Origin: Squalus acanthias
Taxonomy: Eukaryota
Direction: 5' to 3'
DNA: 64,000 nt
Assembly: GCA_030390025.1 (NCBI GenBank)
Contig: CM059432.1
Location: 31,870,001 to 31,934,000, forward strand
Position 1 is the first letter of the stretch. Every line of letters begins with the position of its first letter. The notes under the pieces were generated by a model. The model was not told where the DNA came from, did no database searches, and worked only from the letters and a program-made list of their open reading frames with translations. Of this stretch, positions 4,461 through 62,337 are shown one piece after another. The position numbers and the translations under genes were made by a program.

Positions 4461-6076
4461 ACTTTAAAGGGAATGGCATCTTTTGGGATTGCCCAATTCT
4501 AAATATCTAAATGTTACAGTGGGGGATGTCTTTATGTTGACTGATGTGCCTCAGTCTTCTCTTATTCTAGCATTTTATATTTTTAACTGGCATGAGACAT
4601 ACTGCATACCAAACTCTGCTGCTGCCGCCACTGGAACAGAGCTTATTATCGGTGAAAGGCTGCTGAGTAAAGTGTCTTCCCTCAGCTGTTTTAAGGTGTA
4701 AAACAAGCAAAAGGGATCGAGAGACACTAGTCAGTGTCCAGATATTTACATTAAGAATTAATGTGATAATTCAGAATAATAACGTTTCTATTCAACCAGT
4801 CATTTTGGCAGGAGTTTCTTAAACCCAAGTTACTGAGGGAAGTTCCCAGAGATGTGTTTGATGAGGTTTTAAAAAAAAAAAAGTTCAATCTCTTACATTC
4901 TCGCCAGTGCAGTGCTATGTAAAAGCAAAACTATCAACGTTTATCCAAGTTACATGAGATTTCATTCACCTTTGTGGTGAATTTTCTGTTCATCAAATTG
5001 AGGGCTGGAGAAGGGGACACTTTCCATTTCAGGCACCCTGTGTTAACATGGAGCACCCCCAGTCGAGCACAGCATGGATAGATGCTCTACACTGCAGTCA
5101 AACACCCTCTACTCTGCCCCAACAATGCGCCTAAGCCACAGTCTCTCAAGGACACCCTGTCGTGCACCAGTGACGTTTTTTCATTTTCCGCACCAGCCAT
5201 CCTGAGAGGTCCTCCATGTGAGACTGTAAATGGAGGGTGATGTGTGGTGAAAAGAGTTCAGCTGAAGAAAGCTTTGCAATTGCGCAATTCTATGCAGAAG
5301 ATTGAGATTTCAATGTGGAATCTCTCATATCCTCGAAGAAATTTTGCTTAATGACTTGGAATTGATGGTATTCCACAGAACATCTCTAATCCGCTGCTCT
5401 CCTGGGTAATCGGCTGCCAATTTTCTATTTAAGATGGTTAAAGACCCAAGAAGTTGACCTTAAAAGAACTGTTAGCAATTTTATTTTTGTTTATTTCTCA
5501 GCATAACAGCTCTCTCTATTGTTCTCCCCACTGCAGGGTATTTTGTTCTGGAGAAATTCATTGAATTTTGCCACAATGGAGATTACTTTTTTCTCCACTT
5601 TGCCCTTTATTCTGCTGAATTTGAGTCAGTAGTGGGCAGGATCTCTTTTGCTGAAAAGTGCCACATGTGGTACATACTATTCTGAAAGATCAGGTGGAAA
5701 ATACGTCTGCTAATTGGAGGGCTGAACTAAGATCAGAAAATGCTAGAAATATACAGCAGACCTGTCAAAAAAAAAATATAGAAAAATCAAGATGAAAAAT
5801 GCTGGCAACTCTCACCAGGTCATTCAGCATCTGCAAGGGAGATGATCAGTCAAAATTGCAGATATTGACCTTTTGTCAGAACTGGAAATTGGGTTATCCA
5901 AGACAATCCTCTTTCTATTACATAGAGACAGTGAATATGAAAATCATTCTACTTATTTCCCTTTTGTAGGCTGCAAGATGTTATAAAGGAAAAAATTTGC
6001 CTTTAGGATGATTTTTAGGCGTGCTGGAGGTCAGCTACTTATATTGGGGTACACAGGGTTGTCTGTTCTATTCATG

Positions 6077-10005: not shown

Positions 10006-11357
10006 CGTCCGTGGGCAAATTTTACAACAACAACAACTTTTACAATAGCAACCACTTAAAAGAATATATAGAGTAATGCCATATTGCCACTCCACTGTCT
10101 CAAATCATGAGACAATCATATAAGGTTCTATACAAGTTTAACATAACTTCTCTGCTTTTGTATTCTATTCCTCTAGAAATGAACCCCAATGCTTTATTTG
10201 CACATTTATGGCTTTTTTAACCTGCGTTGCTACTTTTAATGATTTGTGAATCTATACCTCTAGATCCCTTTGCACCTCTACCCCATTTAGAATCTTATTT
10301 TCCAAGGAGTAGGTCGCCTCCTTATTCCTCCTACCAAAATGCACCATCTCGCACGTATCTATATTGAAATTCATTTGTCATTTACATGCCCATTCTGCAA
10401 TTTTGTTTACGTTAGAATTAATTAAGTTTTTAGTTCATCATGTACAAACTCTTTTTTTTAATTACTTGTCAGAAATGACTGGGATATAAAAGAACTGCAT
10501 AATAATGCATTAACACTTCAGAAACGTCACTCCGTTACACGGTTATGCATTGACAAACAATCCAAAAGCCCAAGGTGAGCTGAAAGAGGCATATCTATTC
10601 ATGCAATTTTTATTAATTTTAAAGTTTTCAACATGTTAGCCCATCCCTCATGTCACTATAGCAATGGCTGCACAAGCAGCAGGAGGAGCAGCTTTCCTAT
10701 GGCGCTGACGTGCTGTCCGTCCAGATACGTAATTAGAATATTAATCACAATGCAACCAGACAACCAACAAATATAAAGTGCTGTAGTTCTTTAGTTCATA
10801 GTATTAAAAAGAATGAACAAAAACAGGTATCCATATTTTCAACTTCAATCACTTCCATTAATAAACGTGGTGGTCTTGAACCAGCACATCGCGCCCCCCC
10901 CCCCCCCCCCACCATGTAACATGTCAAAAATGCAGCACTTATTCACAAGTGCAGAAAAACACATACACAATTTGTGTCACCGAATTTAAAAACAAAAAGC
11001 AGGAAAAGCTATGACTTAACAGGAATAAACATTCATCTTTCTTCCTGGACAGGAGAACCAATCAGACTGACTTGGAAATGTTTACTAATATGTTGATGTA
11101 AAAATATTAATTTACAAATTTCGCTTCTAATGTTTTTCTCTCAAACATTCTCCACAATATTAATCCCTGCTCTTATCACACAAAATTGTTGAATTATTTT
11201 AGGTACTTCGCAATTAAATAGCGGGAAACAAACTTCATTGTGTATTCAATTTTTAATTTCATATTTCAAACATTTATACCAAATCGAAATTGTATATTAT
11301 CAGTTTAATCGAAGTATTTTCTGTCTTTCTCAATAAACAAATAGTAGTTTCTTCTAA

Positions 11358-11578
11358 TACGATAGCAAAATACTGCGGATGCTGGAAATCCGAAATAACA
11401 ACAGAAAATGCTGGAAAAACTCAGCAGGCCAGGCAGCATCCGTGGAGAGAGAAACAGAGTTAACGTTTCAGGTCAAAACCCTTCGTCGGAAGGGTTTCGA
11501 CCTGAAACGTTAACTCTGTTTCTCTCTCCACGAATGTTGCCTGGCCTGCTGAGTTTTTCCAACGTTTTCTGTTATTTT
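11358..11578. mobile_element. Fold-back mini-element made of two inverted Penelope-type ends, 14-bp TSD
   Basis: ~90-bp inverted arms centred near 11486. gtagtttcttctaa duplicated at 11344-11357 and 11579-11592. Confidence 0.8.
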
Positions 11579-11629
11579 GTAGTTTCTTCTAAAGTAATTT
11601 CTTGCCATTTTTATACATTATTACATAGG

Positions 11630-12955: not shown

Positions 12956-13841
12956 CTCTCTTCTCTTGTCTTAGGCAGTACCTCGGAACCGAGGATGACT
13001 TGCTTCCACATTAAAAATGAGTTCGCAGGTGACTGATGAGTCCAATGCGGGACCTACAGTCTCTGTCACAGGTGGGGCAGACGGTGGTTGAAGGAGCAGG
13101 TGGGTGGGGTGCTTGGGTTGACGTGCGCTCCTTGCGCTGCCTGCGCTTGGCTTCCACTTGCTCCCGGCGAAGAGACTCGAGGTGTTCGGCGCCTTCCCGG
13201 ATGCTTCTCCTCCACTTTGTGCGGTCTTGGGCCAGGGATTCCCAGGTGTCGGTGGGGATGTTACACTTTTTCAAGGAGGCTTTGAGGGTGTCCTTGAAGC
13301 GTTTCCTCTGCCCACCTGGGGCTCTCTTGTCGTGCCGGAGCTCCGAGTGGAGCGCTTGTTTTGGGAGTCTCGTATCGGGCATGCGGACAATGTGACCCGT
13401 CCATTGGAGCCGATCGAGCGTGGTCAAAGCTTTGATGCTGGGGATGTTGGCCTGAGCAAGAACACTGACGTTGGTGCGCCTATCCTGCCAATAGATTTGC
13501 AGGATCTTGCGGAGGCAGCGTTGGTGGTACCTCTCCAGTGCTTTGAGGTGCCTGCTGTACATGGTCCATGTCTCTGAGGCATACAGCAGGGCGGATATCA
13601 CTGCTGCTCTGTAGACCATGAGCTTAGTGCCGGGATTCCATCTGCTCCTGAGGCCTTGTTGTTCTTCAGTTGTCGGATGGCCTTTTCAACCTCATGCCGG
13701 GCTGGGGTTGTGCTGAGATGGTGCTGATGAGGTTGAAAAGGCCATCCGACAACTGAAGAACAACAAGGCTTCAGGAGCAGATGGAATCCCCGCCGAGGCA
13801 CTAAAGCATGGCGGAGAAGCACTACTGCGCGAATTCATGAA
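12956..13841 (-). mobile_element. RTE-clade LINE, truncated and rearranged, 12-bp TSD
   Basis: ORF 13011-13619: LLYASETWT...CLRKILQI.WQDR...WTGHIVRMPDTRLPK...GGQRKRFKD...CPTCDRDCRSRIGLISH (RTE C-terminus with zinc finger). ctctgcttgatt duplicated at 12944-12955 and 13842-13853. Confidence 0.88.
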
Positions 13842-14933: not shown

Positions 14934-15937
14934 ACAACAACAACTTGTATTTATGTAGCACCTTTAACACAGTAAAACATCCCAATGCATTTCACAGGAG
15001 TGATATAAAACAAAATTTGACACTGAGCCACATAAGAAGAAATTAGGGCAGATGACCCAAAGCTTGGTCAAAAAGGTAGGTTTTAAGGAGCATCTTAAAG
15101 GAGGAGAGAGAGGTGGAGAGGTTTAGTAGGAAATTCCAGAGCTTAGGGCCTTGGTAGCTGAAGGCATGGCCACCAGTGATTGTGCATTCTGACAATTTAA
15201 AGACAGTGGAGAGGTCAAGAGAAGAGGTGGTGAGGTAGAGCTGGGTCTCATCAGAGTACATGTGGAAACTGACATAAAATGCTGGAAATGCTCAGCAGGT
15301 CAGGCAGCATCATGGAGAGAGAAACAGAGTTAACGTTTCAGGTCGATGACCCTTCATCAGAACTGGAAAAAGCTGGAGATGGAACAGGTTTTTAAGCAAG
15401 TGCAGGGGCAGGGAAAGGGGGGAGGGGAGGAAAGAACAAAAGGAAAGGTCTGTGATAGGATGGAAGGCAGGAGAGATTAAGAGACAAAAGGGATGATGGT
15501 GCAAGGCAAAAGGAGATGGTAACGACGCTGTGTTTTCGAATGATGTCGCCGAGGGGCAGCATGTAGGTGAGAAATAGGAGGGGGTGTAGGATAGACCTTT
15601 GCGGGGCACCAGAGGTAATGATGCGGGAGCGGGGAGAGAAGCCATTGCAGGTGATTCTCTGGCTACAATTCGATAGATAAGAATGGAACCAGGTGAGCGC
15701 AGTCCCACCCAGCTGGATGACGGTGGAGAGGCGTTAAAGGAGGAAGGAGTGGTTAACCATGTTAAAGGCTGCAGACCGGTCAAGAAGGACGAGGAGGGAT
15801 AGTTTACCTTTGTCACAGTCACATAGGATGTCATTTATGACTTTGATAAGGGCCGTTTTGGTGCTGTGGCAGGGGCATGGAACCTGATTGGAGAGATTCA
15901 AACATGGAGTTCCGGGAAAGATGGGCTCGGATTTGGG
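14934..15937 (-). mobile_element. L2 LINE 3' fragment, interrupted by a Penelope end at 15274-15523
   Basis: (ACA)n tail with ttgtatttatgtagcacc. MYSDETQLYL (YADD-like) and AFSYQGPKLWN remnants. Confidence 0.78.
15328..15364 (-). ncRNA. Minimal type-I hammerhead ribozyme motif in a Penelope end
   Basis: Minus strand reads AGTT CTGATGA A GGGTC ATC GACCT GAAA CGT T AACT: helix I, intact core, helix II, palindromic ACGT helix III, GUU site. Confidence 0.6.
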
Positions 15938-23393: not shown

Positions 23394-23527
23394 GTTTTAA
23401 TGCTAACTCTTCAGAACGATCCTCCCTCATTGGAAACAGGTGTACAGGATAAGGAAATGGTCAAAAAATACGGCAAGTCCTTTAGGAAGATGATTTCACA
23501 GTGTCTGCAGAAAGATCCAGAGAAAAG
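23394..23527 (+). CDS. OXSR1: OXSR1 coding exon (134 nt; subdomains X-XI)
   Basis: tttag/GTAAAA boundaries. Encodes [44 protein letters not shown](R). [15 protein letters not shown] and DPEKR are OXSR1-type. Confidence 0.96.
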
Positions 23528-23600
23528 GTAAAAATCAGAATTTTTCTCCTTGCTTGCTTCGGTTTCCATATTCTCAGAGTATATCCCAGATCATTGATCT

Positions 23601-23794
23601 CAAACATAAAAACAGAAAATGCTGGAAATACTCAGCAGGTCAGGCAGTATCTGTGGAGAGAGAAACAGAGTTAACGTTTCAGGTCGATGACCCTTTGTCA
23701 GAACTGGAAAAAGCTGGAGATGCTGCCTGACCTGAGTATTTCCAGCATTTTCTGTTTTTATTTCAGATTTCAAGCATCCACAGTACTTTGCTTT
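23601..23794. mobile_element. Fold-back mini-element of inverted Penelope-type ends
   Basis: taaaaacagaaaatgctggaaatactcag...caggcag pairs with ctgcctgacctgagtatttccagcattttctgttttta. Contains a core-mutated hammerhead (CTGACAA) on the minus strand at 23669-23705. Confidence 0.78.
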
Positions 23795-24481
23795 TGGGAT
23801 ATACTCTCGATCGATGAGTTAAGACAGTTTGAATGCTGGATAATGTCTGAGTGATCTGGATTGATTTCTAAGTGGGTTGCTATGTAAAAATCACCGATTA
23901 CAACATCCTGCTTATTCCACATATTAATTTGCTAATACTCTTAAAATTAATGTGGAAAAACCAACAACAATTTGCATTTATATAACACCTTTAACGTAGT
24001 AATACATCCCAAGGAGCATAATCAGACAAAAAATGATCTTTAGCTGTTTTAATCCTGGCTGTTTTAGAGGTTATAGTAAAAGGTTTTATAAAAAAAAATG
24101 TTTACTGTAGCATGTTTCTGCTTTATGTGCCAAATGTGGCCATTAAGAACATTTGAATGCCTACTGAGCTGTAGCAACTCTCTCCAGTTCTCCCTTCTTT
24201 ATGGAAAGAGCACCGAGCTTCTGCTTAGTGTTTCTCTGCAGTGACTCGGCTCAGATCTAAAACTTGTTTTGGGGTAAATGACCTGAAGAATCCCTTGGCC
24301 ACTGTACTTGCCATAAAGTTTCTTTTTCTCCTGGCATCATTACCTCCCTCACCAAGGTGTGGTTGCCAGGCACCCTTTGTTACAATTTTTGTAGCCATCA
24401 TTCATATTGGATACTTGACCGTGATTCTCTCATCTAACTATAGAAGACATCACAGCAGAGCCTGATCCTGTCCTGTCCAAA

Positions 24482-28000: not shown

Positions 28001-29253
28001 CAGCTTTGTTTCTCTCTGTTCTGGGCCCACACTTAGGTTCCCAGCCCCCTGACAAACTAGTTTAAATCCTTCCCAACAGCACTAGCAAGCCCCCCTGCGA
28101 GGATGTTGGTCCCGCTTCTGCCGAGGTGTAACCCATCCAGCTTGTACAGGTCCCACCTTCCCCAGAATCGGTCCCAATGCCTCAGGAATTTAAATCCCTC
28201 CCTCCTACACCATCTCTCCAGCCACGCATTCATCTGGTCTATTCTCCTATTTCTGCTCTCGCTAGCATGTGGCACTGGGAGTAATCCTGAGATTACTACC
28301 TTTGAGGTCCTGCTTTTTAATTTATTTCCTAGCTCCCTATATTCTGCTTGCAGGACCTTGTCCCTCTTTCTACCCATGTCGTTGGTACCGATATGGACCA
28401 CGACCTCTGGCTGTTCACCCTCCCCCTTCAGAATGTCCTGCAGCCGCTCAGTGACATCCTTGATCCTGGCACCAGGGAGGCAACATACCATCCTGGAGTC
28501 ACGTCTGCGGCCACAGAAACGTCTATCTGTTCCCCTTACGATAGAATCCCCTATCACTATTGCTCTCCGACTCTTTTTCCTCCCCTCCTGTGCAGCTGAG
28601 TCACTCATAGTGCCACGGATTTGGCTCTTGCTGCATTCCCCTGAGAAACCATCTCCCCCAGCAGTATCCAAAACGAAAAATCTGTTGGAGAGGGAGATTG
28701 ACCTGGGGACTCCTGCACTACCTTCCTAGTTCTTTTACTCTGGTGGTTACCCATTCCCTGTCTGCCTGTGCACTCTTTACCTGCGGTGTGATCACCTTGT
28801 TAAACGTCCTATCCACGAAGATCTCAGCCTCGTGGATGCTCCACAGTGACTCCAGCCGCAGCTCCAGCTACGAAACGTGGATTTCGAGTAGCTGCAGCTG
28901 GAGACACTTCCTGCACACGTGTTCGCCCTGGACACCGAAAGTGTCCCTGACTTCCCACATAGCACAGGAGGAGCATTCCACGCTGCCAAGCTGCCCTGCC
29001 ATGTCCTACCCTTAATTTACTCCCTTTACTTCCTTTAAATTAAAGAATATTAAATACACTAGGGACCTTACTTCACTTTAAACACTACTTACTCTAAACT
29101 AGAGACCTTACTTTTACTTTAACGACTGGACTGTAAAAATACTCACCAGGTCCTACTCACCAATCAGCTCCTTCCCTTGTGCCAACGTCATTTTTAATCT
29201 CTGACGTCACTTTTGAATGTTGCCTGTTGAGGTCTGCTCTCACTGCTGCTCCC
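25018..29253 (-). mobile_element. Near full-length CR1 LINE (5'UTR, ORF1 zinc finger + SGNH esterase, ORF2 endonuclease + RT), frameshifted
   Basis: ORF1: CSSC/CRKC finger near 28880-28990 and GDS...PGA...HIGTND...DGLHL (28057-28671). ORF2: YLNARSIRNK, ITET, VYRPPN, MGDFN, LDLIL, then RT motifs [18 protein letters not shown]. Inserted into an L2 tail (24988-25017 / 29254 onward). Confidence 0.95.
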
Positions 29254-37782: not shown

Positions 37783-38515
37783 ATTACAGGTTTCAGTCTC
37801 CCCACTTTAATGCATTATGAATTCAGATAATCTATTTTATTCTGGAATTTCTTGCCATGTCGACATTGCTGTGTGCTACTTGTATTTTGGGGCACTGGGG
37901 GAGGGGATGTGGTGGAGGCGGGGTGTACAGTATCTCCGATCACTCCTGTAAGTGTGCCCTTGCTTTCTCTGGCCCGGAATTTTTTTTTACTTGCCCAAAT
38001 ATCTAGGTAAATTTGTAACATGCCTAAGGATCAGAGAAACCTCCACATTATTTCTGCTTAGCTGATTTTGTATGTGCTCTCATGATCTTCCTTGACCTTG
38101 GAAGGTGGCTAATTAAACATTTCATTAGACTGCCAAATAGATTTATTAAACAGTAAAAGAATAAACAAACAGCAGTGACGCACTAAATTTTAGTAGGTTT
38201 TGAGTTCCATAATCTCAATGTAAATAGAAGATAACCTAGTCACAATTGCTGCGCTAAACTATAATGTCTTATAAATAAGAATATAGAGTACAATATGAAG
38301 AAGTCATGATAAATTAATATAAGGCAATCGTAAGACCATATTTAGAGTATTGTGTGCAATTTTGGGAACCTCATCATAGAAAGGATAGAAAAGCCAAAGA
38401 GCATATAGTGTAGAATCTCCAGGGTGATGCTAGGGATGAGGAAGTCAACTTATGAGGATAAATTCAAGTTCTGAGACTATTTCCATTGGGATAAAAAAAA
38501 GTTAAATAGAGATTG

Positions 38516-39800
38516 AAATAAAAACAGAAAATACTGGAAATGCTCAGCCGGTCAGGCAGCATCTGTGGCGAGAGAAACAGAGTTAACATTTCAGGTCTGT
38601 GACCTTTCGTCAGAACTGGAAAAAGTTAAAGATGTAACAGATTTTAACCAGGTGCAGAAGCGAGGAACGAACAAAGGGACGATCTGTGATAGGGTGGAAG
38701 GCAGGAGTGGTTAAATGCTGCAAATGGGAATGACAGAATCAACAACAGCTTCCGTCTGGGAAAAAATAGGGGCCGAGGTTATGGTCTGAAATTGTTGAAC
38801 GCTATGTTGAGTCCAGAAGGCGGTAAGGTGCCTAATCGAAAGATGAGGTGCTGTTCCTCGAGCTTACGTTGAGCTTCATTGGAACAGTGTAAGAGACAGA
38901 GGACAGAGGTGGGAGTGGAGCAGAGAATTAAAGTGACAGGCGACCGGAAGCTTGGGGTCACCCTTACGGACTGAACGGAGGTGTTCCGCAAAGCGGTCAC
39001 CTGCGCTTGGTCTCCCCAGTGTAGAGAAGATTGCATCGTTAGCAGCGACGACAGTAGACTAAATTGCAAGAAGTACAAGTAAATCGTTGTTTCACCTGGA
39101 GGGAGTGTTTGGGGCCCTGGACAGTGGGAAGGGAGGAGGTAAAAGGGCAGGTGTTGCATCTCCTGCGCTTGCACGGGAAGGTGCCGTGTGAAGGGGAGGG
39201 GCTGTTGGGGGTGATTGAGGAGTGGACCAGGGTGTTGCGGAGGGAGCAGTCCCTTTGGAATGCTGGGAGGGGAAAATGTGTTTGGTGGTGGGATCACGCT
39301 GGAAGTGGCGAAAATGGCGGAGGATGATCCGTTGAATGTGGAGGCTGGTGGGGTGAAAGATGAGAACAAGGGGAACCCCATCATGATTCTGGGAGGGAGG
39401 GGAAGGGGTGAGAGTAGAAGTGCAGGAAATAGAACGGACACAGTCGATGGCCATGTCAACCACGGTAGAGGGAAATCCTCAGTTGAGGAAAAAGGAAGAC
39501 ATATCAGAAGGACTAGTATGGAAGATGGCATCGTCCGAACAGATGTGGCGGAGACGGAGAAACTGGGAGAATGGAATAGAGTCCTTACAGGAAGCGGGGT
39601 GGGAGGAAGTGCAGTCCAGGTAGCTGTGGGAGTTAGTGAACTTATAATGGATGTTTGTCAATAGCCTATCCCCAGAAATGGAGACAGAGATGTTGAGGAA
39701 GGGAAGGGGAAGAGTCAGAGATGGACCATATGAAGGTGAGGGAAGGGTGGAAATTGGAAGCCGTGAATGAAATTTTCTAGTTCAGGGTGAGAGCAGGAAA
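38516..39800 (-). mobile_element. Penelope-like retroelement, 3' part (RT thumb, GIY-YIG endonuclease, terminal repeat)
   Basis: YKFTNSHSYLD..SSHPASCKDSIPFSQFLRLRHICS; VPLVLIFHPTSLHIQRIILRHF; FTC.S.NLVY...LYTGETKR (GIY-YIG); RKLEEQHLIFRLGTLPPSGLN. Hammerhead motif at 38581-38617. Confidence 0.87.
38581..38617 (-). ncRNA. Hammerhead ribozyme motif, helix III decayed
   Basis: AGTT CTGACGA A AGGTC ACA GACCT GAAA TGT T AACT. Core intact, but ACGT has become ATGT (CpG decay). Lies downstream of and co-oriented with the Penelope ORF. Confidence 0.5.
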
Positions 39801-43590: not shown

Positions 43591-45135
43591 GATCTCATCC
43601 CCTTAACATTCTAGTAGCTCTTCTCTGCATTTTAGCCAGCTCAGCTATATTTTCCTCTTGAGAGCTACAGATCTGTATACAGTACTCCATATGCAGCTTG
43701 ATCTTTGCTTTATACAGCAATATTTGATTGGTATGAAATACCACGATTTATACAGATTTAAACTTTACCCCCCCCCCCCCCCCCCCAACAACACAATCTA
43801 TAATTAATTGCACCATTTGTTACTTTTCACATTGTTAACCATTCAAATAAGATACAACTGAGTGATCAGTCATCAAAGTGGTGACATGTTGACCAAACAG
43901 TTGGATTAAGAAATCCCTATAGGCATCAGTAGTTTGTCACCAGTTCATGCATTTATTACTCTGAGGCTCAATTTCTCTTCGTTCTCCTGGCCGGCCTCTA
44001 CACCTCAATCCTCCATAAGTTGCAACTTATTCAGAAAGCTACGGCCCACATCCTCACCTGTATAAAGTTATGCACAGCCACCACATCCAACATTTCAAGC
44101 ATCTGTTGCATCTCCGAGGTTCAGTGTATTGTCTTCAAGATCTGTGTTCTCATCCTCAGATCCCTCCCTGGTTTTTGCCCACCCTACCTCCATGATCTCC
44201 TCCAGTACATGTCCCTGTACACTTTCTCTGCTTCTCTGTCTCCAGGTTAGTCCTCATCTCTTTCAAGAATCTGTTGCATCTCCGAGCTTCAGTGCATTCT
44301 CTTCCAAAATCTCTGTTCGGCTGACGTGGCATTGGCCATGTCAATTTCTCTACTCCCCTCACTCACTCTAACCTACCCACTTCTGAACTTGCATCGCTCT
44401 GTTCTCTTGGGTCCAACCCTGACATTGTCATTAAACCTGCTGATAAGCGTGACACTGTTGCTTTTGACGAACAGACTTCTAACTTGCGTGGGCTGAACGC
44501 CAACTCTCCAGCACCACCACCTGCCTCACCCTGGACCATGACCCCACCAGTTTCCCAGACCGACACTGACCTCCTCTCCTCTGGAGATCTCCCAACCCCC
44601 ACGGCCTCTAACCTCATAGACCCCCAATCCCGCACAGCCCACTCTACCTCCTTCCCAAGATTCACAAACGGGTCTGCCCTGGTAGACCCATCATTTCAGC
44701 CTGTTCTTGCCATCAGAACGTTTTTCTTCCCATCTCGACTCCATACTTCTCCTTGTCCAGACTCTTCCAACCTATGTCTGCGACTCTTCCGATGTTCTCC
44801 ACCACTTAACAGTTTCCTGGCCCTAACAGCCTCCTTTTCACATCGACATCCAGTCCCTCTACATCTCGATTCCCCCACCAGGATGGCCTGAGGGCCCTCC
44901 GCTTCTTCCTTGAACGGACTCCAACCCATCCCCATCGATCACCACCCTCCTCCAATGCAAGAACATGTTCTTGCATGCGAACAACTTCTCCTTTGACTCC
45001 ACTCACTTCCTCCAAATAAGAGGTGTTGCTATAGGAACCCGTATGGGTCCGAGCTATGCCTGCCTTTTTGTGGGATGCGTGGAACATTCTTTGTTCCAGT
45101 CCTACTCTGGTCCCCTCCCTCGCCTCTTTTTTCCG

Positions 45136-47736
45136 TAAGAACATAAGAAATAGGAGCAGGAGTAGGCCATTCGGCCCCTCGAGCCTGCTCCGCTATTCAA
45201 TAAGATCATGGCTTCAACGCCACTTTCCTGCCCGCTCCCCATAACCCTTGACTACCCTGTTTTTCAAAAATCTGTCTTATCTCCGCCTTGAATATATTCA
45301 ATGACTCAGCCTCCACAGCTCTCTGGGGTAGAGAATTCCAAAAATTCACGACCCTCTGAGAGAAAAAATTCCTCCTCATCTCCATTTTAAATGGGCGACC
45401 CCTTATTCTGAAACTATGCCCCCTAGTTCTAGATTTCCCCCACGAGGGGAAACATCCTCTCCGCATCTACCTTGTCAAGCCCCCTCAATCTTTTATGTTT
45501 CAATAAGATCACCTCTCATTCTTCTAAACTCCAATGAGTATAGGCTCAACCTGCTCAACCTTTCCTCATAAGACAACCCCTTCAACTCAGGAATCAACCT
45601 AGTGATCCTTCTCGGAGCTGCCTCCAATATAAATATATCCCTCCTTTAAATAAGGAGACCAAAACTGTATGCAGTACTCCAGGTGTGGCCTCACCAACGC
45701 CCTGTACAGTTGTAGCAAGATTTCCCTACTTTTCTACTCCATCCCCCTTGCAATAAAGGCCAACATTCCATTTGCCTTCCTAATTAGTTGCTGTACATGC
45801 ATGCTAACTTTTTGTGTTTCATGTACGAGGACACCCAGATCCCTCTGTACTGCAGCATTCTGTAGTCTCTCTCCATTTAAATAATATTTTACTTTTTTAT
45901 TCTTCTGACCAAAATGGATAACCTCGCATTTTCCCACATTATACTCAATCTGCCAAATTTTTGCCCACTCACTTAACCTATCTATATGCCTTTGCAGACT
46001 CTTGTGTCCTCCTCACAACTTGCTTTCCCACCTATCTTTGTATCTTCAGCAAATTTGGCAACAGTAGACTCGGTCCCTTCATCCAAGTCATTAATAATTT
46101 GTAAATAGTTGAGGCCCCAGCACTGATCCCTGTGGCACCCCACTAGTTACAGTTTGCCAACCCGAAAATGACCCATTTATCCCGACTCTTTGTTTTCTGT
46201 TAGTTAGCCAATCCTCGATCCATGCTAATATATTACCCCCAACACCTTGAGCTCTTATCTTGTGCAGTAACCTTTTATGTGGCACCTTATCGAATGCCTT
46301 CTGGAAATCCAAATACAGTACATCTACTGGTTCCCCTTTATTCACCCTGCTCGTTAATCCTCAAAGAACTCTAGTAAATTTGTCAAACACTATTTCCCTT
46401 TCATAAAACCATATTGACTCTGCTTGATTGTATTATGATTTTCTAAATGTACTGCTACTACTTCCTTAATAATGGATTCCAGCATTTTCCCAATGACAGA
46501 TATTACATAGAATCTAGGAGCAGGAGTAGGCCATTTGGCCCGTCGAGCCTGCTCCACCATTCAATACGATCATGGATGATCATCCAAATCCAGTACCCTG
46601 TCCCTGCTTTAATCCCCACAGTACACATATCCCACCCTACCCCCGTAACCCCACGTATTTAATTCCCCCTAACATATCCCATCCTATCCCCATAACCCCA
46701 CATACTTAATCCCCCCCTAACACTAAGGGTCAATTTATCATAGCCAAATCAACCTACCTGGCTAACTATATTAGGCTAACTGGCCTCTAGTTTCCTGCTT
46801 TCTGTCTCCCTCCTTTCTTGAATAGGGGTGTTACATTTGCGGTTTTCCAATCCGCTGGGACCTTTCCAGAATCCATGGAATTTTGGTAGATTACAACATA
46901 CGCATCCACTATCTCTGCAGCCACTTCTTTTAAGACCCTAGTATGCAGGCCATCAGGTTCAGGGGACTTGTCAGCCTTTAGTCCCATTAGTTTGCCTAGT
47001 ACTTTTTCTCTAGTGATAGTGATTGTTTTAAGTTCCTCCCTCCCTTTTGCCCCTTGATTATCTACTATTATTGGGATGCTTTTAGTGTCTTCTACTGTGA
47101 AGACAAATACAAAATATTTGTTCAAAGTCTCTGCCATTTCCCTGTTTCCCATTATTAATTCCCCAGTCTCATCCTCTAAGGACCAATGTTTACTTTAGCT
47201 ACTCTTTTTTTACATACCTGTAGAAGCTCTTACTGTCTTTTTTTTATATTTCTTGCTAGTTTACTCTCTCAATCCATCTTCCCCCCATTTTTTTAGTCAT
47301 CCTTTGCTGGATTCTAAAAATTTCCCAATCCTCTAGCCTACCACTAATCTTCACAACATTGTATGCCTTTTCTTTCAATTTGATGCCATCCTTAACTTCA
47401 TTAGTTGGTCACGGATGGTTCATCCTTCTCGTAGAGTCTTTCCTTTTCACTGGAATATACCTTTGCTGAGAGTTATGAAATATCTCCTTAAATGTCTGCC
47501 ACTGCTTCTCTACCGTCTTACTGTTTAACCTATTTTCCCAGTCCACTTTAGCCATCTCTGTCTTCATACCTTTGTAATTGCCTTTATTTAAGTTTAAAAC
47601 ACTAGTTTCAGACCCAAGTTTCTCACCCTCAAACTGAAAGTGAATTCTATCATGCTATGATCACTCTTCCCTAGAGGATCCTTTACTATGAGATCATTAA
47701 TTAATCCTGCCTCATTACACATTACCAGATCTAAAA
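45136..47736 (-). mobile_element. CR1 LINE, 5'-truncated, nested in the Penelope RT
   Basis: taagaacataagaaataggagcagg tail. [42 protein letters not shown]. Carries its own insert at ~46506-46768. Confidence 0.9.
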
Positions 47737-47964
47737 TACATTGATGACTGTATCAGTGCCATTTCCTGCTCTTGCCCCGAACTGGAAAATTTCATCAACT
47801 TTGCTTCCAATTTCCACCCCTCCATCACCTTCATATGGTCAATCTCCTGTAAGGACTGTAGTCATTCTCCAAGTTTCTCCATATCCGTTGCATCTGTTAT
47901 GATGCCTCCTTCCATACCAGTGCTTCCAGTATGTCTTCCTTTTTTCTCATCCAAGGATTCCACT

Positions 47965-48117
47965 TCATGTTCCATCTAATTTTTTTTTGGTGCGTGGTTC
48001 CTTTGGCTGTGCAGCCCATTCAAATGTTCACGCATGCGCGGTTACTCCCATTTGGAAAAACTGGTGAGCGGCTTGCGTGGGACCTCCAGACGGCTGCGCA
48101 GCTTAACGGGAACATTG
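47965..48117. mobile_element. 153-bp hAT MITE with 8-bp TSD
   Basis: attccact duplicated at 47957-47964 and 48118-48125. Imperfect TIRs tcatgttccatctaa / ttaacgggaacattg. Confidence 0.8.
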
Positions 48118-48575
48118 ATTCCACTCCACCGTGGTTGACTGGGCCCTCAACCGTGTTTGTCCCATTTCCCGCACTTCTGTCCTCACCATGATAGGGTTCC
48201 TCTTGTCCTCACCTTCCACGCCACACGCCTCCACATTTAACGGATCATTTTCCGCCACTTCCAGCGCAATGCCACCACCAAACAAATCTTTCCCCTCCCC
48301 TTTCAGCATTCCGAAGGGGCCGTTCCCTCTGCGACACACTGGTCCACTCTTCAATCACCGCCAATGCCCTCTCTGTTCTCTGCCTCCTACACTGTTCAAT
48401 GAAGCTCGAGGAACAGCACCTCATCTTTCGATTAGGCGCTCTACAGCCTTCTGAACGCGACATTGTGTTCAACAATTTCAGATCATGACCACTGCTCCCA
48501 TTTTTTTCGGACAGCGGTGCCGGTATTGGTTCTGCTGTTGCCATTTACAGCTCCTCTAGACCCATCTTTTCATGG

Positions 48576-49090
48576 AATCATAGAAACTTACAGCACAGAA
48601 GGAGGCCATTCAACCCATCATGCCTGTGTTGGCTCTTTGAAGAGCTGTCGTGCTTAGTCCCACATCCCCACTTTTTGTCTGTAACCCTATAAGTTCCTCA
48701 TCCTTAAGTACCTGTCCAACACCCTTTTAAAATTATTTATGGAATCAGCTTCCACCACTTTTTCAGGTAGAGCGTTCCAGATCCTGCCAACTCTCTAAGT
48801 ATAAACATGTCTCCCCTCTAGATCTTTTGCCAATGATTTTAAATCTATGATCTCTGGTTATTGACCCACTCGCCAGAGGGAAGAGTTTTTCTCTATCTAC
48901 TCTATCAAAACCTCTCATCTTGGAAACCTCTATCACCTCTTAACCTTCTCTGTTCCAAAGAGAACAATCCTAACTTTTCCAACCTTCCTCATAACTGAAG
49001 TTCCTCATCCCTGGTAAAATCCTGGTAAATCTCCCCTGTGTCCTTTCTAAGGCCTTTACATCTTTTCTGAAGTGTGGTACCAAGAATTGT
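48576..49090 (-). mobile_element. CR1 3' fragment
   Basis: aatcatagaaacttacagcacagaaggaggccatt tail followed by decayed RT C-terminus. Confidence 0.8.
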
Positions 49091-49762: not shown

Positions 49763-49885
49763 GTGAGAAGGGTCCCAGGCTCCAGTGGTCGACTACACAA
49801 GACAGAAGATGGCGGCTGGGAATGGAGCGATGATGAATTGGATGAAGAGAGTGAAGAAGGGAAGGCCGCAGTGTCTCAGTTGCGG
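49763..49885 (+). CDS. OXSR1: OXSR1 coding exon (123 nt; S-motif and WEW motif)
   Basis: atcag/GTAGGA boundaries. Encodes [54 protein letters not shown] and SQLR are OXSR1-type. AGT at 49784-49786 corresponds to human S325. Confidence 0.96.
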
Positions 49886-50634
49886 GTAGGAAGACCAGTA
49901 ATATAAATGGTTCTGCTACTCACTTCATCCAGGGAAATGGGAGTACTCAATTGGAAAGGGTGGGGACTACAGGGAAAGAAAATCACACCAGACCTCTTAA
50001 GTGCATAAATTTCATGAGAAAGAGCAGACTAAGGAATTTTCCTGTTCTCTGAAATGTTTCTACTCAAGTACCTGTTTGCTAGCCATGTTATTAACACATC
50101 CCAGATCATTAATTGCAAGGATGAGTACCAGACAGTTCAGAAACAGCATATGTTTCAAATGTTTAAAAAAAAAATCAGAACCATGATCTTGGGATTACTG
50201 GTTCATTACCTTGACATCTAAAGCAGGATAAAACATTGGAATATTGCAGTTACCTCTGGAGACCCTCAATAATGGATCGATCCTTGCTCCTTCAGTGCTA
50301 TAGTCCCTAAGCTTTCAAATTCCCTCCCTGAACACCTCTCTCTTCCGGGACCTTTTCCTATGTTAAAGGTGCTACATAATTGCAAGTTGTTGATGTTAAA
50401 GGGAGTGATACAAGAGAAAGGGCAGTAATTTGAAGCCATCAAAAAATAAAGAAAGGAGCCTGTTTGCTAGTATTTCTTGGAAGATGTAACTGTACTATTC
50501 TAAGTTGCTACCTCTTGCATTCGACCCTTTTATTCTTCATTCATGTACATTTTTTGTAAGAGGGGGAAGAAATTTAATCTCATTTTTTGTGCACGCCATC
50601 TTTGGTCAAATAGGAAGGCAACTTACTCCTCAGT

Positions 50635-51158
50635 AATAACAACAGAAAACGCTGGAAAAACTCAGCAGGCCAGGCAGCATCCGTGGAGAGAGAAAGAGAG
50701 TTGACGTTTCAGGTCGATGACCTTTCATCAGAACTGGGAAGAGCTGGAAATCAAATAGATTTAAGGCCAGGGTAAAGCTGGGAAAAGGGGGAGGGGATAA
50801 AGGAACAAAAGAGGAGATGAAGAGACATTAAGAGACATTAAGAGATATGCAAGGCTAGAGGTGGTGTTAATGTGACAGATTAAGGCTGAATGAAGTGTGA
50901 AATCTACTGGCAGAATGAAGGACAGCTGCCAGCTTCTAGGAGGAAAAAAAAGGTGGGGGGGACAAATAAAAGGGTGGATAAAATAAAATATAAATGTGAT
51001 TGGAGCTGAGGTTATGATCTAAAATTGTTGAACTCGATATTGAGTCCAGAGGGCTGTAGCGTGCCTAAACGAAAGATGAGGTGCTGTTCCTCGAGCTTAC
51101 GCTGAGCTTCCGTGGAACAGTGTATTAGGCCGAGGACGGTGAGGTCAGAGTGGGAGTG
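50635..51158 (-). mobile_element. Penelope-like element 3' end
   Basis: Collinear with 38516-38940. Encodes AQRKLEEQHLIFRLGTLQPSGLNIEFNNF on the minus strand. Confidence 0.8.
50699..50735 (-). ncRNA. Minimal type-I hammerhead ribozyme motif with canonical GUC site
   Basis: Minus strand reads AGTT CTGATGA A AGGTC ATC GACCT GAAA CGT C AACT. Helix I AGTT/AACT, helix II AGGTC/GACCT, self-complementary ACGT, GUC triplet. Confidence 0.68.
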
Positions 51159-52672
51159 ATTGAACCCACAGCGAAGTGTGCAAGGGAATCGCTCTATTCC
51201 TTTTACTCTATTTCCTATTCACCTCGCTTCCCCAAATCCCATTGTTTGTTCATTATGTTCGTACTATGTAATGTTTACTTGCTAAGTCACCTGTGTGTTT
51301 TGCACTCCTATACAGTATTAATAACTGTTGATGGATTGGCATACAGCTGCAATAAATTTTGCATGTGGTATTATATATCCAACCAGGGCAAACATCGTAA
51401 ACTTTTGACAGCCTCTTTTTCAAGGAGGCTCTTAGTGATTTCTAAAGGTAATGGGAAACTCTTCTCTCGTGGTATATGTTATGTTGACAGCTAATGAGTG
51501 ATACATTTCATAGATGGGTTGCTCCACGCACGCACTGACGCTCATTCTCACATACACTTTCACTTCTACAGACATGCGCACACTTTCTTCCTTTGCATCA
51601 AGGATCACTGAATAGCAGCCAGAAGTGGAATACATGTTGCCGCTACCAAGGCTTGTTGTACTGTCCCCACTGTTGCCATGGTTGAGATTACCTAAATTGA
51701 CACAAACCATAGATCAAAACTGGGACTTTTTCTGGCCTCCATGGTTAAATGCCTCAATATGCTGTGCATTTACAACAGCAGCTGATATTTATATAGTAAG
51801 TTCACACAGCAAAACATGCTTGGGGGGTGGCAGTGAGCTCTGAACAGGAAGTCGGGGAGAAGTTAGAGAAGATGACCTTAAGCATGGGCAGATGTATATT
51901 TTGAGAAGGCTTTTGATGAAGGGAAGAGAGTTAGCAAAACAGAGCTTTAGAAAGAGAATTCCCCATTGTAGGGTTGTGATGACTAAAGATTTTATGGTGG
52001 GGCAAGGGGGGAAATGCACAGTAGCAGTCGGGATGAAGAAAATTTCAGAGCTGGAGAGGAATGAAACTATGGAGGAACGTCCCGACAAGGGTAAGCATTT
52101 TAAAGTCAGTGTGCTAGGTGGCACTAAGCCAGTGGAGGATGGCCAGGCCTAGGGTGATGGGGATTTGGTCTTTGTATCACCATCATAGTGATTTTATAAA
52201 GATAACTAGTCAGTAAAGGTAATGTTGCACATTGGAGCCTCAGTACATAGCTCCACAGGCAAGAAGACACTGTTTTATACATAGAGAGCTATCAACCTCA
52301 CCAGTACCATCATGGAAAGGTAGCAAGTAGAAGCTTACCATTTTGCACATAGAGGGAGAAAATAATTGTTTTAAGAGTCATCCCCAGTGCACACTCCTGC
52401 TCCTTGGGACTAATTTCAGAGCACCATTGTCAAGGTGCCTACCCTGCCTTTTGTCAGCATGGTGCACAGCATGGGTTAACAAGGAAGGGATTCTGAAAGG
52501 AGAGAGGATCCGACCGCACTTGCTGTCTTTTTACTAACATTAAAAATTTAGCCAGCATTTGTGCACCATTTGAATTGAGAGCAGACTGTATAATCCTACC
52601 CTTGCACTACAAGAACACTGGATGTCTACATTCCCAGAAAAAATGAACAAAATTGTGGGATTTAAACTCCAG

Positions 52673-56296: not shown

Positions 56297-56535
56297 ATGG
56301 CAGATCGCCGCCCCAGGGAGAGAGCGCGGAGGTTTTCCGATGAAGCTTTGGAGGCATTGGTTTTAACGGTGGAGAGAAGGCGGGCGGTCCTGTACCAACT
56401 GGCAGGAGGCCCTCACCACAAGTCTGCCGGACTATGTGGAGGGAGGTGGCACACCACATCACGGGCAGCACTGTGCTCCCCAGGTCCCACACCCAGTGCA
56501 GGAGGAAGTTTAACGAGCTCACACGGGTGGTCCGG
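56297..56535 (+). pseudogene. Harbinger Myb/SANT-like (NAIF1/MSANTD-type) DNA-binding protein, first exon, frameshifted
   Basis: MADRRPRERARRFSDEALEALVLTVERRRAVLY, then after a frameshift WREVAHHIT...RSHTQCRRKFNELTRVVR, followed by a GTGAGT donor. Confidence 0.78.
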
Positions 56536-56899
56536 GTGAGTGAAGGCTTTAACAAATGCTACATACCACCATCTGTACCACAAGCTTCACACACTGCTCA
56601 ATGCACCACACCCCCAGCACTCACCCGCCAACAATCTCTACTTAGCAACACTCACGCCCACGTCTCACACCTTGCACACAATGACAGCTATTCAACTAAG
56701 GCAGGCACGAGGGTCATTAGTTATTAGAATTCATGTGATATGTTTATAGATAAATTTATTAATTGCGTTTGGAATATTTTGTGGTGTCTCTCATTTCAGC
56801 TTTGCGCCCAGGAGGACGCTGTGATATGGTGTGAGACAGGGATGGTATGATGGGGATGTGGTGAGCAACGGGGATCTAGGGTTTCATTCATTCGAATCG

Positions 56900-57450
56900 C
56901 AGTCTGATGGTCCGAAGGTCGAATGTCTCGCTGCCTCCCTCTTCCCTCCTGTTCCTCTTCCTCCTTGTTATCCTCATTGTCCTCATCCTCCTCTGCCTCG
57001 TCCTCCTCCTGAGGTGGTCCCGCAATCCCTTCTGGCAAGGGCTGCACCCTCATGGTGGCCAAGTTGTGGAGCATGTAGCAGACCACCACGAAATGGGATG
57101 CCTGCTCTGGCGAGTACTGGACAGCTCCTCCCGAACGGTCAAGGCAGCGGAACCGTTGCTTCAATAAGCCGATGGTCTGCTCGATGATGTTCCTGGTGGC
57201 AGCATAGCTCTCATTATGAGTGCTGGGCACGAAGGTTGGGGTTGCAGAGGGGAGTCATGAGCCAGGTGGAGAACGGATACCCCTGGTCTCCGAGCAGCCA
57301 CCCTCAAGCTTGACGTGGTGGCTTGAAGAGTTCTGGCACACCAGTCCGGCGCAGGTGTAAGGCATCGTGGCTGCTGCCAGGATAACGGGAATTGACATTG
57401 AGGATTCACTATCTGTGGTCGCACGCCAACTGCACATTAAGTGAGTGATT
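56900..57450 (-). pseudogene. Harbinger (HARBI1-like, DDE_Tnp_4) transposase remnant
   Basis: HSLNVQLACDH, WLLGDQGYPFSTWLMTP, HN...TRNIIEQTIGLLKQRFRCLD...CYMLHNLA and an acidic tail. N-terminus and first catalytic Asp are missing. Confidence 0.85.
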
Positions 57451-58454
57451 TTTAGCAAGTGTTGTACTTTGAAGCCTTTCAAAAATAATGAGGGAGTTTT
57501 GTACTTGCCAGAACACTCCCTGATACCAAAGAACCTTGAAATGACTAAGGAAAACTCTTTCAGGAGCAGGAACTAGCACACAGCCACTCAAACTTCAAAA
57601 ACCTGAGAGGTGCGAGTGATTAGTAAAGATCCCTTTAAATAGCGTCGCTGCAGCTGGCTTCCTGCTGCTGCACGCCACCTGAAGCTGTCATTGCTTTCTC
57701 CAGCTGGTAAGTACCTTGCTAAAACGAAGTTGGGCGATCGGGCGTCCAGTGAGCGTTGCACACTCACTGACTTCGCGATCTCTATCACGGCGAGCTCCCT
57801 GGCGATCGAGGTTACCGGCTGCGCTACAGGCACCACCGATATGGCGTGCGGCGCTGGAACCAGCATCAGCCGTCGTCACAGCTGTCAATGGCACTTTAGC
57901 ACCATCTCCTGGTGCGCCACATGAATTTCTTCCCCTATGAATCCTGGAAATATGAAATAAAAGCAGAAATTGTTAGAAATGGACAGCAGATCTATTACAT
58001 CTGAAAGAGAAGAGATATGTTCACCTTTTGGGTGTGATCTTTATCACTTGGATTGTTCTGATGGAAGGTCTCTCCCAAAATGTTAACCTTTTCTTTTTCA
58101 GATACTGATCTAGCTGCTGTGTATTTCCAGCACTTTCTCTAAAGGTGGGAAATGTACATATATTAAGCTTTTTCTTTGCAGGTCAAAATGGCAGGGAACA
58201 GATATTGTAACAAGCCACAGTGCAATCAAATTCGAGAGGGAACTGGATACTAGTTAGATAAGAAGGGGGTATGTGTAATGTATCCCCATGTTCTAAATAC
58301 ATTTTTCAATAAAACATTAGCAGTAGGAGCCAAAACAGTAAAACTATTTAATCTCTGCTCATTCGGCAGTAAAATAGTCGAACTGCAGAGCAAACCGAGC
58401 AATTGCATGAGGTTGTTTAGTTTAACGATGTGTTTTGTGCATTTTTTTCAAAAC

Positions 58455-61412: not shown

Positions 61413-62301
61413 AAATACTGAGACTTTTTTTCGCTTCTGGAACATCATTACTGGTGGAAATTCATCTTTGTTTAAAGGAATTAAACATTTTTTAAAAAAA
61501 TCTTGGTAATTGGGCGTTGCTGGTAAGGCTGGCATTTGTTGCCCTTCAGAAGCTGGTGGTGGGCCGCCTTCTTGAACCGCTGCAGTCTGTGTGCATCCGA
61601 TTTTATACTCGTTCCTTTCTAGCAGAAATAAAAAGCTGGGTGTTTTTTTTGCAAGCACCTTTGGAAGCAGCAGTCTTTTACGCATACTTTCAACAACAAC
61701 ATGCAATTATAGAGCAACCCTCACATAGAAAACATCTTGGAGTACTTCACAGGGAGAGGCCAACCAGTAGGAAGGAGAAATCAATTGAACGCATGGTTGA
61801 AGGGAGAGGTTTATAAGTTGCTTAGAGGGGAGTGGGGTAGCAAGGTTCTGGGAGGAAAGAGCGGGGCAAAGTGTCTCAAAGATCTCTGGTGCGGTGGAAG
61901 GACCAGAAGCAATGCAGAACTGGAGGATCAGTGAGTGCAGGCTGGGGTATGATTGGTGAAGGTTGCTGTGAAGCGAGGAGGGATTTCCCTACCTCCCTCC
62001 TTTTTAAAAAAAAAAGTTAACTACTTTAAGCTGCCAAAAAGAACATAAAATGCTGGCAATGAACAGCATATGATAAAGATGTGTTAATATTTTGGGTATA
62101 AGCCTTTATAAGAGACCTGTGTCTCTTTAATCCCTTCTAAGATGTAAGGTTGGCACCACTTATTTAACCTAATACCAGTGGCTTTTTTTATTTTATGTTT
62201 GTATCTGTATAATCTTTTACAGTTATCTTGTTGATGTTGAATTTATAAATGTACTTGTGCATTTAATTCATTTACTTTTTTCCCCCCCTCTTTCTCAACA
62301 G

Positions 62302-62337
62302 TCCCCCCGAGTGAAAGAGTCTCCACAGGGTCCAGAT
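62302..62337 (+). CDS. OXSR1: OXSR1 36-nt in-frame microexon
   Basis: Long pyrimidine tract + caacag acceptor, GTGAGT donor. Encodes SPRVKESPQGPD, continuing ...SQLR|SPRVKES as in OXSR1. Confidence 0.9.

What the first reader, a model, noticed from the sequence alone, without database searches (positions are those of the whole stretch)
50699..50735. Intact minimal hammerhead ribozyme motif in a Penelope terminal repeat
Seen: the minus strand reads AGUU-CUGAUGA-A-AGGUC-AUC-GACCU-GAAA-CGU-C-AACU. This gives the complete CUGANGA/GAAA core, a 5-bp helix II, a 4-bp helix I, a self-complementary ACGU in place of helix III, and a GUC site (predicted cut between 50703 and 50702). Sister copies: 15328-15364 (GUU site, intact), 38581-38617 (ACGT>ATGT), 23669-23705 (G8>A) and 11458-11490 (U4>C). 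Established: Penelope-like elements carry minimal type-I hammerheads that cleave mainly as dimers through the palindromic helix III. At 38581 and 50699 the motif lies 3' of, and co-oriented with, the Penelope ORF remnant, as expected. Inference: this very abundant shark repeat end is a ribozyme family that gene and repeat annotation would miss.
Basis: partly seen in the sequence, partly recalled or inferred. Interest (0 to 1): 0.72.

Follow-up and report, generated by a model that had tools for sequence, protein, structure and literature searches.

The report
Penelope hammerhead relic in shark intron
This is a real minimal hammerhead-ribozyme motif in the tail of a broken Penelope-like jumping gene, an arrangement described in other animals in 2014; it lies backwards in an intron of the OXSR1 kinase gene and is most likely a silent relic.

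Summary
The motif is there as described, and is not chance: 2 strict and 3 relaxed loci, against means of 0.00 and 0.03 in 200 shuffles. It lies 276 nt after the stop of a GIY-YIG endonuclease remnant. A sister copy carries the Neptune/Nematis-type zinc-finger linker. It is a minimal hammerhead in the 3' pseudo-LTR of a 5'-truncated Penelope-like element, the class of Cervera & de la Peña 2014.

(1) GUC is a minority site; most family depth reads GUU (66-94%).
(2) Helix II closes A-U or G·U, not G-C.
(3) No two-sided covariation among 8 window copies.
(4) The monomer is predicted to fold into a hairpin that pairs the core with the cut site.
(5) The copy is solo and antisense in an OXSR1 intron, so the host pre-mRNA does not carry it.

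Cleavage is untested. No cartilaginous fish is among the 56 motifs listed in 2014; a 2026 preprint covers one such genome. This scan has noted the same thing on other DNA (29 findings). Ordinary.

The parts
50699..50735 (-). Minimal type-I hammerhead motif (4-bp helix I, CUGAUGA core, bulged A, 5-bp helix II closed by A10.1-U11.1, GAAA, palindromic ACGU, GUC site; predicted cut 50703/50702)
51012..51161 (-). Last ~50 codons and stop of the PLE GIY-YIG endonuclease; approximate 5' truncation point of this copy
   Evidence: (26 of 48 identical to P0003, E 2e-19); P0003 has RVT_1 and GIY-YIG hits
50736..51011 (-). Pyrimidine-rich 3' UTR / pseudo-LTR between the stop and the hammerhead; ends in a pyrimidine tract plus CAG whose AG is the start of helix I
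   Evidence: partly shared with the 15328 copy
50636..50698 (-). Conserved 3' end of the pseudo-LTR, ending about 67 nt after the cut site; no 30-40-nt tail and no target duplication of 7 nt or more found for this copy
38515..39798 (-). Longest co-oriented sister: broken RT-thumb, CX4CX2C linker and GIY-YIG endonuclease remnant, followed by a hammerhead (38581-38617, AUGU instead of ACGU, GUU site)
15272..15480 (-). Sister 3' end with intact hammerhead 15328-15364 (GUU site, G10.1·U11.1), inserted in a LINE remnant
23606..23793 (.). Head-to-head inverted insertion: minus arm with a G8>A hammerhead (23669-23705) starting 17 nt before helix I; plus arm 23718-23793 lacks the hammerhead and carries the tail
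11344..11592 (.). Fold-back inverted insertion with a 14-bp target duplication (11344-11357 / 11579-11592); the junction lies in helix I/core of the 11458-11490 motif; the minus arm carries the tail
5795..5889 (-). Decayed sister copy with broken core
57934..58138 (.). Decayed inverted pair; the plus arm 58055-58138 has a broken core
49763..49885 (+). OXSR1 (OSR1 kinase) coding exon upstream of the intron that holds the motif (approximate limits)
   Evidence: 41 of 41 identical to three shark OSR1 proteins
62293..62337 (+). OXSR1 coding exon downstream of that intron (approximate limits)
   Evidence: 80-88% over 16-20 columns, E 2e-6 to 8e-5

Best explanation
It is the minimal hammerhead of a Neptune/Nematis-type Penelope-like retrotransposon, carried in the 3' pseudo-LTR of a 5'-truncated, dead-on-arrival copy. 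SHOWN: the motif, its position after the endonuclease stop, the family, and the antisense intronic location in OXSR1. INFERRED for the active parent element: a tandem pLTR-ORF-pLTR transcript holds two motifs, which pair through the ACGU palindrome and swap helix I strands to form two cores. Cleavage is slow and needs help, probably from the element's own protein, because a lone motif prefers a hairpin in which U4-G8 pair with the cut site. Reverse transcription starts about 65 or 100 nt 3' of the cut site and reads through it, so inserted copies come from RNA that was uncut (or re-joined) there. This copy has no partner, is read backwards in the host pre-mRNA, and decays neutrally.
For: Motif above chance. 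Fits the published consensus CUGANGAH / GAAAN-palindrome-NUH. Endonuclease remnant upstream on the same strand. Sister ORF hits shark and ray PLE proteins at 56-74%, with the CX4CX2C linker that PMC8557442 gives for Neptune/Nematis. Inverted arms, one-sided tail and a 14-bp target duplication match PLE insertions in PMC3846280. [quoted passage not shown] Monomer hairpin -9.5 against open hammerhead -5.9 kcal/mol; active dimer -9.9 against -19.0 for two locked monomers. Host exons on + flank the site. CpG decay in run X17 hits the palindrome (30-35%) as hard as another CpG (27-35%).
Against: No cleavage was measured, and no Rfam hammerhead model matches. The conserved G10.1-C11.1 pair is absent: A-U in 4, G·U in 3, unpaired in 1 of 8 copies. 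There are 0 two-sided compensatory changes in 9 pairs over 8 copies. The folding energies ignore tertiary contacts and Mg2+. The 50699 copy keeps too little ORF for its own clade call; the clade comes from the 38581 sister, and no tree with labelled references was built. Contig data cannot show RNA ends, and no pile-up of ends was listed (table 6).
Confidence: 0.85

Rival explanations
1. The motif descends from a hammerhead, but in this family it no longer cuts. It is kept in parent elements as a protein-binding or priming structure (the locked hairpin) next to the reverse-transcription start sites.
For: The locked hairpin dominates in all 4 copies folded (P of G5-N17 pairing 0.70-0.99). The majority site is GUU and helix II does not close with G-C. 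In the anole element, core mutants did not affect insertion and no reads ended at the cut site. Naiad PLEs thrive without canonical hammerheads.
Against: The full CUGANGA/GAAA core and the palindrome are retained, which a mere hairpin would not need. A-U and G·U closing pairs and GUU sites occur among the 56 published motifs. The anole motif does cut once protein is added.
Confidence: 0.15
2. It is a host-co-opted intronic ribozyme acting on OXSR1 pre-mRNA, like the conserved intronic hammerheads of amniotes.
For: It lies about 810 nt into an OXSR1 intron and has the GUC triplet rather than the family's GUU. The surrounding 1.4 kb is held in part by runs of other coded organisms, though the shared words may be repeats.
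Against: OXSR1 is on + and the motif on -; the + strand lacks the core. It is one of very many family copies (12,289 contigs laid in X1) and lacks a stable helix III.
Confidence: 0.02
3. It is a unit of a non-autonomous, tandem, circRNA-producing retrozyme.
For: Hammerhead-bearing tandem retrozymes were reported in one chondrichthyan genome and are argued to derive from PLE pLTRs. 4 of 7 core-bearing copies here are short and start within 17 nt of the motif.
Against: This copy is fused to the endonuclease end and is not in a tandem array. Retrozymes in PMC7229834 are tied to canonical type I motifs with loop 1-loop 2 contacts.
Confidence: 0.04
4. A chance arrangement of bases in a pyrimidine-rich repeat tail.
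For: No Rfam hit; the fold z-score of the 37-mer is only -1.72; no two-sided covariation.
Against: 0 of 200 shuffles gave a strict motif. The repeat copies count as one event, but that event sits exactly where PLEs carry hammerheads.
Confidence: 0.01

Closest known systems
Minimal hammerheads (min-HHR) in pseudo-LTRs of metazoan Penelope-like elements (Cervera & de la Peña 2014, PMC4209133), e.g. the Acropora digitifera Neptune motif
   Same: Type-I topology, CUGANGA plus one bulged base, short helix I, no helix III but a palindromic 15.1-16.1 stretch, NUH site, position 3' of the EN in truncated copies, mostly solo dispersed copies.
   Different: Host is a cartilaginous fish, absent from the 56 motifs of their Fig. 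S3. Helix II closes A-U/G·U rather than the usual G-C (3 and 8 of their 56 rows have these, counted by eye). Helix II is 5 bp with a 3-nt loop.
Poseidon element of Anolis carolinensis (PAc; Frangieh et al. 2024, PMC11167929)
   Same: Hammerhead near the pLTR end, two 3' ends that differ by a 30-40-nt tail, insertion from uncut RNA.
   Different: PAc is Penelope/Poseidon clade, which lacks the zinc-finger linker present here, and its protein-assisted cleavage was shown in vitro; here nothing was assayed.
Non-LTR retrozymes (PMC7229834; bioRxiv 10.64898/2026.07.22.740005)
   Same: Type-I hammerhead, PLE-related, reported in one chondrichthyan genome.
   Different: Retrozymes are non-coding tandem arrays; this copy is solo and joined to an endonuclease remnant.
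Ultraconserved intronic hammerheads of amniotes (Rfam HH9/HH10; names recalled, the paper seen only as a reference)
   Same: Intronic location in a vertebrate gene.
   Different: This one is antisense to the host gene, high-copy and minimal, and no Rfam hammerhead model matches it.

Membership tests
min-HHR of metazoan PLEs | Core C3UGANGA9 and G12AAA15.1 with an NUH site | tested here: met
min-HHR of metazoan PLEs | Unpaired base between A9 and helix II | tested here: met
   A at 50724; feature listed
min-HHR of metazoan PLEs | Palindromic 15.2-16.2 in place of helix III | tested here: met
   ACGU at 50707-50704
min-HHR of metazoan PLEs | Short helix I (type-I topology) and helix II of 4-8 bp | tested here: met
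   4 bp and 5 bp; 95% of cells paired over 8 copies
min-HHR of metazoan PLEs | G10.1-C11.1 closing pair (consensus feature, not universal) | tested here: not met
   A-U 4, G·U 3, other 1 of 8; C11.1 only 0.3-4.5% of depth. Published members also have A-U (3 of 56) or G·U (8 of 56) (by eye), so this does not exclude membership.
min-HHR of metazoan PLEs | Located in the pLTR, 3' of and co-oriented with a PLE ORF | tested here: met
min-HHR of metazoan PLEs | Covariation of the stems across sequence families | tested here: inconclusive
   Only one family in the window; 0 two-sided changes in 9 pairs, one-sided changes in 4 pairs
min-HHR of metazoan PLEs | Self-cleavage as a dimer, or with protein | not testable with these tools
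   Needs in vitro transcription; contigs cannot show RNA ends
EN+ Penelope-like elements | RT followed by a C-terminal GIY-YIG endonuclease with CxxC inside the GIY-YIG motif | tested here: met
   38581 sister matches residues 108-451 of P0003, which has RVT_1 and GIY-YIG hits; the window pieces alone gave no Pfam hit
EN+ Penelope-like elements | 5' truncation, inverted pLTR arm, optional 30-40-nt tail, variable target duplication | tested here: met
   a target duplication was found in 1 of 5 insertions examined
Neptune/Nematis clades | CX2-5CxxC linker between RT and EN | tested here: met
   CX4CX2C in the 38581 sister (definition)
Neptune clade proper | RT phylogeny groups with Neptune references | not tested
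   No labelled reference sequences were at hand; Neptune and Poseidon are the groups reported for vertebrates
Non-LTR retrozymes | Head-to-tail tandem units, each with a hammerhead, non-coding | tested here: not met
   Solo copy joined to an EN remnant
Rfam hammerhead families | Covariance-model match | tested here: not met

The most novel reading that the evidence does not exclude
The shark PLE hammerhead is active in vivo and has shaped the genome. Copies in the sense direction of introns get cut (as trans-dimers or with PLE protein) and are purged, leaving core-bearing copies antisense. In addition, the 5' edge of the motif, where a pyrimidine tract plus CAG forms a splice-acceptor-like site inside helix I as in Drosophila virilis Penelope, marks the 5' end of the parent RNA. 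The very many short copies that start at the motif would then be strong-stop cDNAs primed at the tail sites. In this window 6 of 7 core-bearing copies are antisense (6 of 8 if a decayed plus-strand copy near 54970 is counted), against 3 of 7 coreless pieces and 10 of 18 CR1-type pieces. 4 of 7 start within 17 nt of helix I. None of this is significant, several pieces are arms of one insertion, and no conserved splice donor was seen. A genome-wide strand and 5'-end count could make in vivo activity of PLE hammerheads directly testable.
Probability: 0.1. Interest if true: 0.55.

Novelty: new member of a known kind. Interest (0 to 1): 0.15.

Why it matters
As a single locus it matters little: it is a relic of a known ribozyme class, on the wrong strand to touch its host gene. 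As a family it is useful material. The function of hammerheads in endonuclease-bearing Penelope elements is still open (PMC8557442, PMC11167929), and a vertebrate genome with this many copies would allow strand-bias, 5'-end and cleavage tests with great statistical power. It also shows a gap in Rfam, whose models miss this motif.

Tried and rejected
Rfam: no hammerhead hit. The miRNA-like hits at 11414-11558 are only the fold-back insertion.

Whole genome: none is held, so there is no direct copy count, strand count or full-length parent.

JGI metagenome contigs: 0 matches to a degenerate family pattern.

Pfam on window ORF pieces: no GIY-YIG or RT hit for the 6 PLE-region ORFs of 14 proteins, nor for the 3 window pieces. 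Identity rests on homologues.

In vivo cleavage: all 4 runs laid (of 24 listed) are contigs, and two are only guessed to be RNA. There is no step in depth at the cut site and no pile-up of ends, so the test is uninformative. Six X6 contigs leave the motif at 50704, but that is next to the majority mismatch at 50703 and probably reflects another repeat family; rejected as evidence of cleavage.

Conservation of the 5' core: rejected. The table shows no row for 50723-50736 although window copies differ at 50723 and 50727, and 19 rows were hidden. Summed depth was not used as copy number.

Target duplication: none of 7 nt or more for the 50699, 15328 and 23669 insertions; only A-runs for 38581.

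Splice donor for the acceptor-like site: none conserved, judged by eye in three copies.

A paper search for measured effects of the 10.1-11.1 pair and the GUU triplet gave nothing useful in the listing; no such paper was read.

Lünse et al. 2017 is not held; it is known here only from passages of PMC6765202.

Full report
OBSERVATION. My descriptor scan of both strands found 3 relaxed loci (50731, 38613, 15360) and 2 strict ones. 200 dinucleotide shuffles gave a mean of 0.03 relaxed (max 1) and no strict locus. The copies belong to one repeat family, so they are one evolutionary event, not five. The stated changes in the sisters are right. The 11458 copy has also lost most of its helix I 5' strand to an inversion junction. 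Rfam gave no hammerhead match at either scale.

THE ELEMENT. 276 nt upstream on the same strand ends a 50-codon remnant that is 26 of 48 identical to the C-terminus of P0003, a whale-shark protein with RT and GIY-YIG hits. The 38581 sister keeps about 1 kb of broken ORF matching residues 108-451 of P0003. Its thumb region found 34 proteins among 195 candidates; the named ones are from sharks and rays, at 56-74% identity. It has a CX4CX2C linker before the endonuclease, which PMC8557442 gives as the mark of the Neptune and Nematis clades (passages). No tree was built, so 'Neptune' is likely, not shown. A profile from seven of the arms gave 17 hits at E<=1 and 14 at E<=0.05; the seven match by construction. 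Head-to-head inverted pairs occur at 11358-11578 (with a 14-bp target duplication), 23606-23793 and 57934-58138, and the 30-40-nt tail sits on one arm only. All of this is the standard PLE insertion anatomy of PMC3846280 and PMC8557442 (passages).

Seven coding exons of OXSR1 (OSR1 kinase) lie on the + strand between 14075 and 62337. The exon at 23394-23528 is 100% identical to proteins of five shark genera, which supports a shark host. The motif lies in the intron between 49885 and about 62293, antisense to the gene, and the + strand lacks the core. The host pre-mRNA therefore does not contain the ribozyme, and the nearest same-strand copy is about 12 kb away.

THE FAMILY BEYOND THE WINDOW. 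No genome is held, so I laid 4 of 24 listed runs on 50625-50785 at 80% likeness. All are contigs. 12,289 contigs were laid from about 55% of DNA run X1, 3,567 from X17, and 1,271 and 1,637 from two runs guessed to be RNA. The family is very abundant and is present in three coded organisms, but these figures are not copy numbers. Position 17 reads U in 94, 94, 93 and 66% of depth, so GUU is the family site and this GUC copy is a minority form. U11.1 is the rule; C11.1 is 0.3-4.5%. In the most diverged run (X17) the palindrome's CpG has decayed in 30-35% of depth, like a second CpG (27-35%). G12>A at 6.7% lies within the 4.6-10.6% of six other non-CpG transitions tabulated. That is neutral decay, as expected for dead copies: it speaks against selection on inserted copies, not against the parent ribozyme. 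In X1 the palindrome CpG is more variable (5-8%) than the other CpG (<1%), which I cannot explain. The table has no rows for the 5' core although window copies differ there, so it says nothing on conservation of that part. Among 8 window copies 95% of stem cells pair, but no pair shows a two-sided change. The 10.1-11.1 pair is A-U in 4, G·U in 3 and unpaired in 1.

MECHANISM. Published: a lone minimal hammerhead did not cleave, and dimers and trimers cleaved weakly (PMC4209133). The anole PLE motif cleaved only when the element's protein was added, core mutants did not change insertion, and reverse transcription started at two internal sites that define the tail (PMC11167929). Computed here: the monomer's best fold pairs U4-G8 with the C15.2-to-A1.1 stretch, burying the cut site (-9.5 kcal/mol against -5.9 for the open form; G5-C17 pairing probability 0.99). 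The active dimer scores -9.9 against -19.0 for two locked monomers. These energies omit tertiary contacts and Mg2+. By inspection the lock follows from the consensus whenever N7 is a pyrimidine and the palindrome is CG, so it is not special to sharks. Seen in the sequence: all 7 core-bearing hits run through the cut site to ends about 67 or 100 nt beyond it, and none of the 14 hits starts at the cut. Inferred: insertion used RNA that was uncut or re-joined there; the parent element's motif is a slow, dimer- and protein-dependent ribozyme; this copy is inert. I put this at 0.85. The main rival, a motif kept for binding or priming without cutting, is at 0.15.

COMPARISON AND NOVELTY. It works like, and meets the tested sequence and context features of, the min-HHRs of metazoan PLEs. 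The G10.1-C11.1 consensus pair is not met, but by eye 3 of the 56 published rows have A-U and 8 have G·U there. None of those 56 is from a cartilaginous fish. The 2026 preprint reports hammerhead-bearing retrozymes in its one chondrichthyan genome. Searches for 'hammerhead ribozyme' + 'shark' (22 papers), 'hammerhead' + 'Penelope' (45 papers, 30 listed) and 'Penelope' + 'shark' + 'genome' + 'Chondrichthy' (6 papers) showed no title on this family. The library lacks most subscription papers and Lünse et al. 2017, and the preprint's supplements could not be read, so prior description is not excluded. What I saw of each paper: PMC4209133, parts 1-2 of 4 and supplement parts 1-2 of 3; PMC11167929, parts 1-2 of 4; the preprint, parts 1-2 of 5 and passages; PMC8557442, PMC6765202, PMC7229834 and PMC3846280, passages only. 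This scan has noted the same class 29 times in at least 2 genomes, including this one. Those notes are unchecked and were not used as support.

MOST NOVEL READING. 6 of 7 core-bearing copies are antisense to OXSR1 (6 of 8 with a decayed plus-strand copy near 54970), against 3 of 7 coreless pieces and 10 of 18 CR1-type pieces. 4 of 7 begin within 17 nt of helix I, two of them at sharp inversion junctions; the other two are decayed, so their starts are uncertain. A pyrimidine tract plus CAG ends inside helix I in the 5 copies that keep that region, recalling the intron end in D. virilis Penelope. The numbers are too small to mean anything yet, but they suggest genome-wide tests of in vivo activity. 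Probability 0.1.

VERDICT. Observation confirmed; interpretation partly supported; new member of a known kind; interest 0.15.

Noticed in passing
window 14075-62337 (+): Seven coding exons of OXSR1/OSR1 kinase (about residues 164-370); the rest of the window in this range is intron filled with repeats.
   Followed up: yes
window 44355-45132 and 47704-48551 (+): What appears to be one long sense-strand PLE remnant (RT to EN), split by a CR1-type insertion, that has lost its hammerhead-bearing 3' end where another repeat begins near 48577.
   Followed up: partly
window 11470-11510: The inversion junction is a small fold-back (TTC with GAA around a 4-nt loop) inside helix I/core, as expected if the cDNA end primed on itself; palindromic junctions are described for rotifer Penelopes.
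   Followed up: partly
window 23576-23590 and 23793-23810: The flanks of the inverted insertion share a stretch of about 12-13 bp in inverted rather than direct orientation.
   Followed up: no
window 56344-57254: Myb/SANT-like and DDE_Tnp_4 ORF remnants on opposite strands: a Harbinger-type DNA transposon.
   Followed up: no
window 25019-28725 (-), with relatives at 6957-9040, 19517-21659 and 45138-47441: Near-full-length CR1-type LINE with an esterase (SGNH/GDSL) ORF, endonuclease and RT, and several older relatives.
   Followed up: no
window 13011-13793: LINE 3' fragment with a C-terminal C2H2 finger (RTE-like, label recalled) whose 5' part is an inverted duplication (13630-13793 folds as a long hairpin).
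   Followed up: no
P0008 C-terminus (Stegostoma PLE-derived protein model): The predicted protein ends in a stretch that looks like a read-through of a related hammerhead; inferred from the peptide only, the DNA was not seen.
   Followed up: no
window 50705-50706, run X1: The palindrome CpG varies more (5-8% of depth) than the helix II CpG (<1%); an AUGU subfamily (as at 38581 and 58055) or a mapping bias could explain it.
   Followed up: partly
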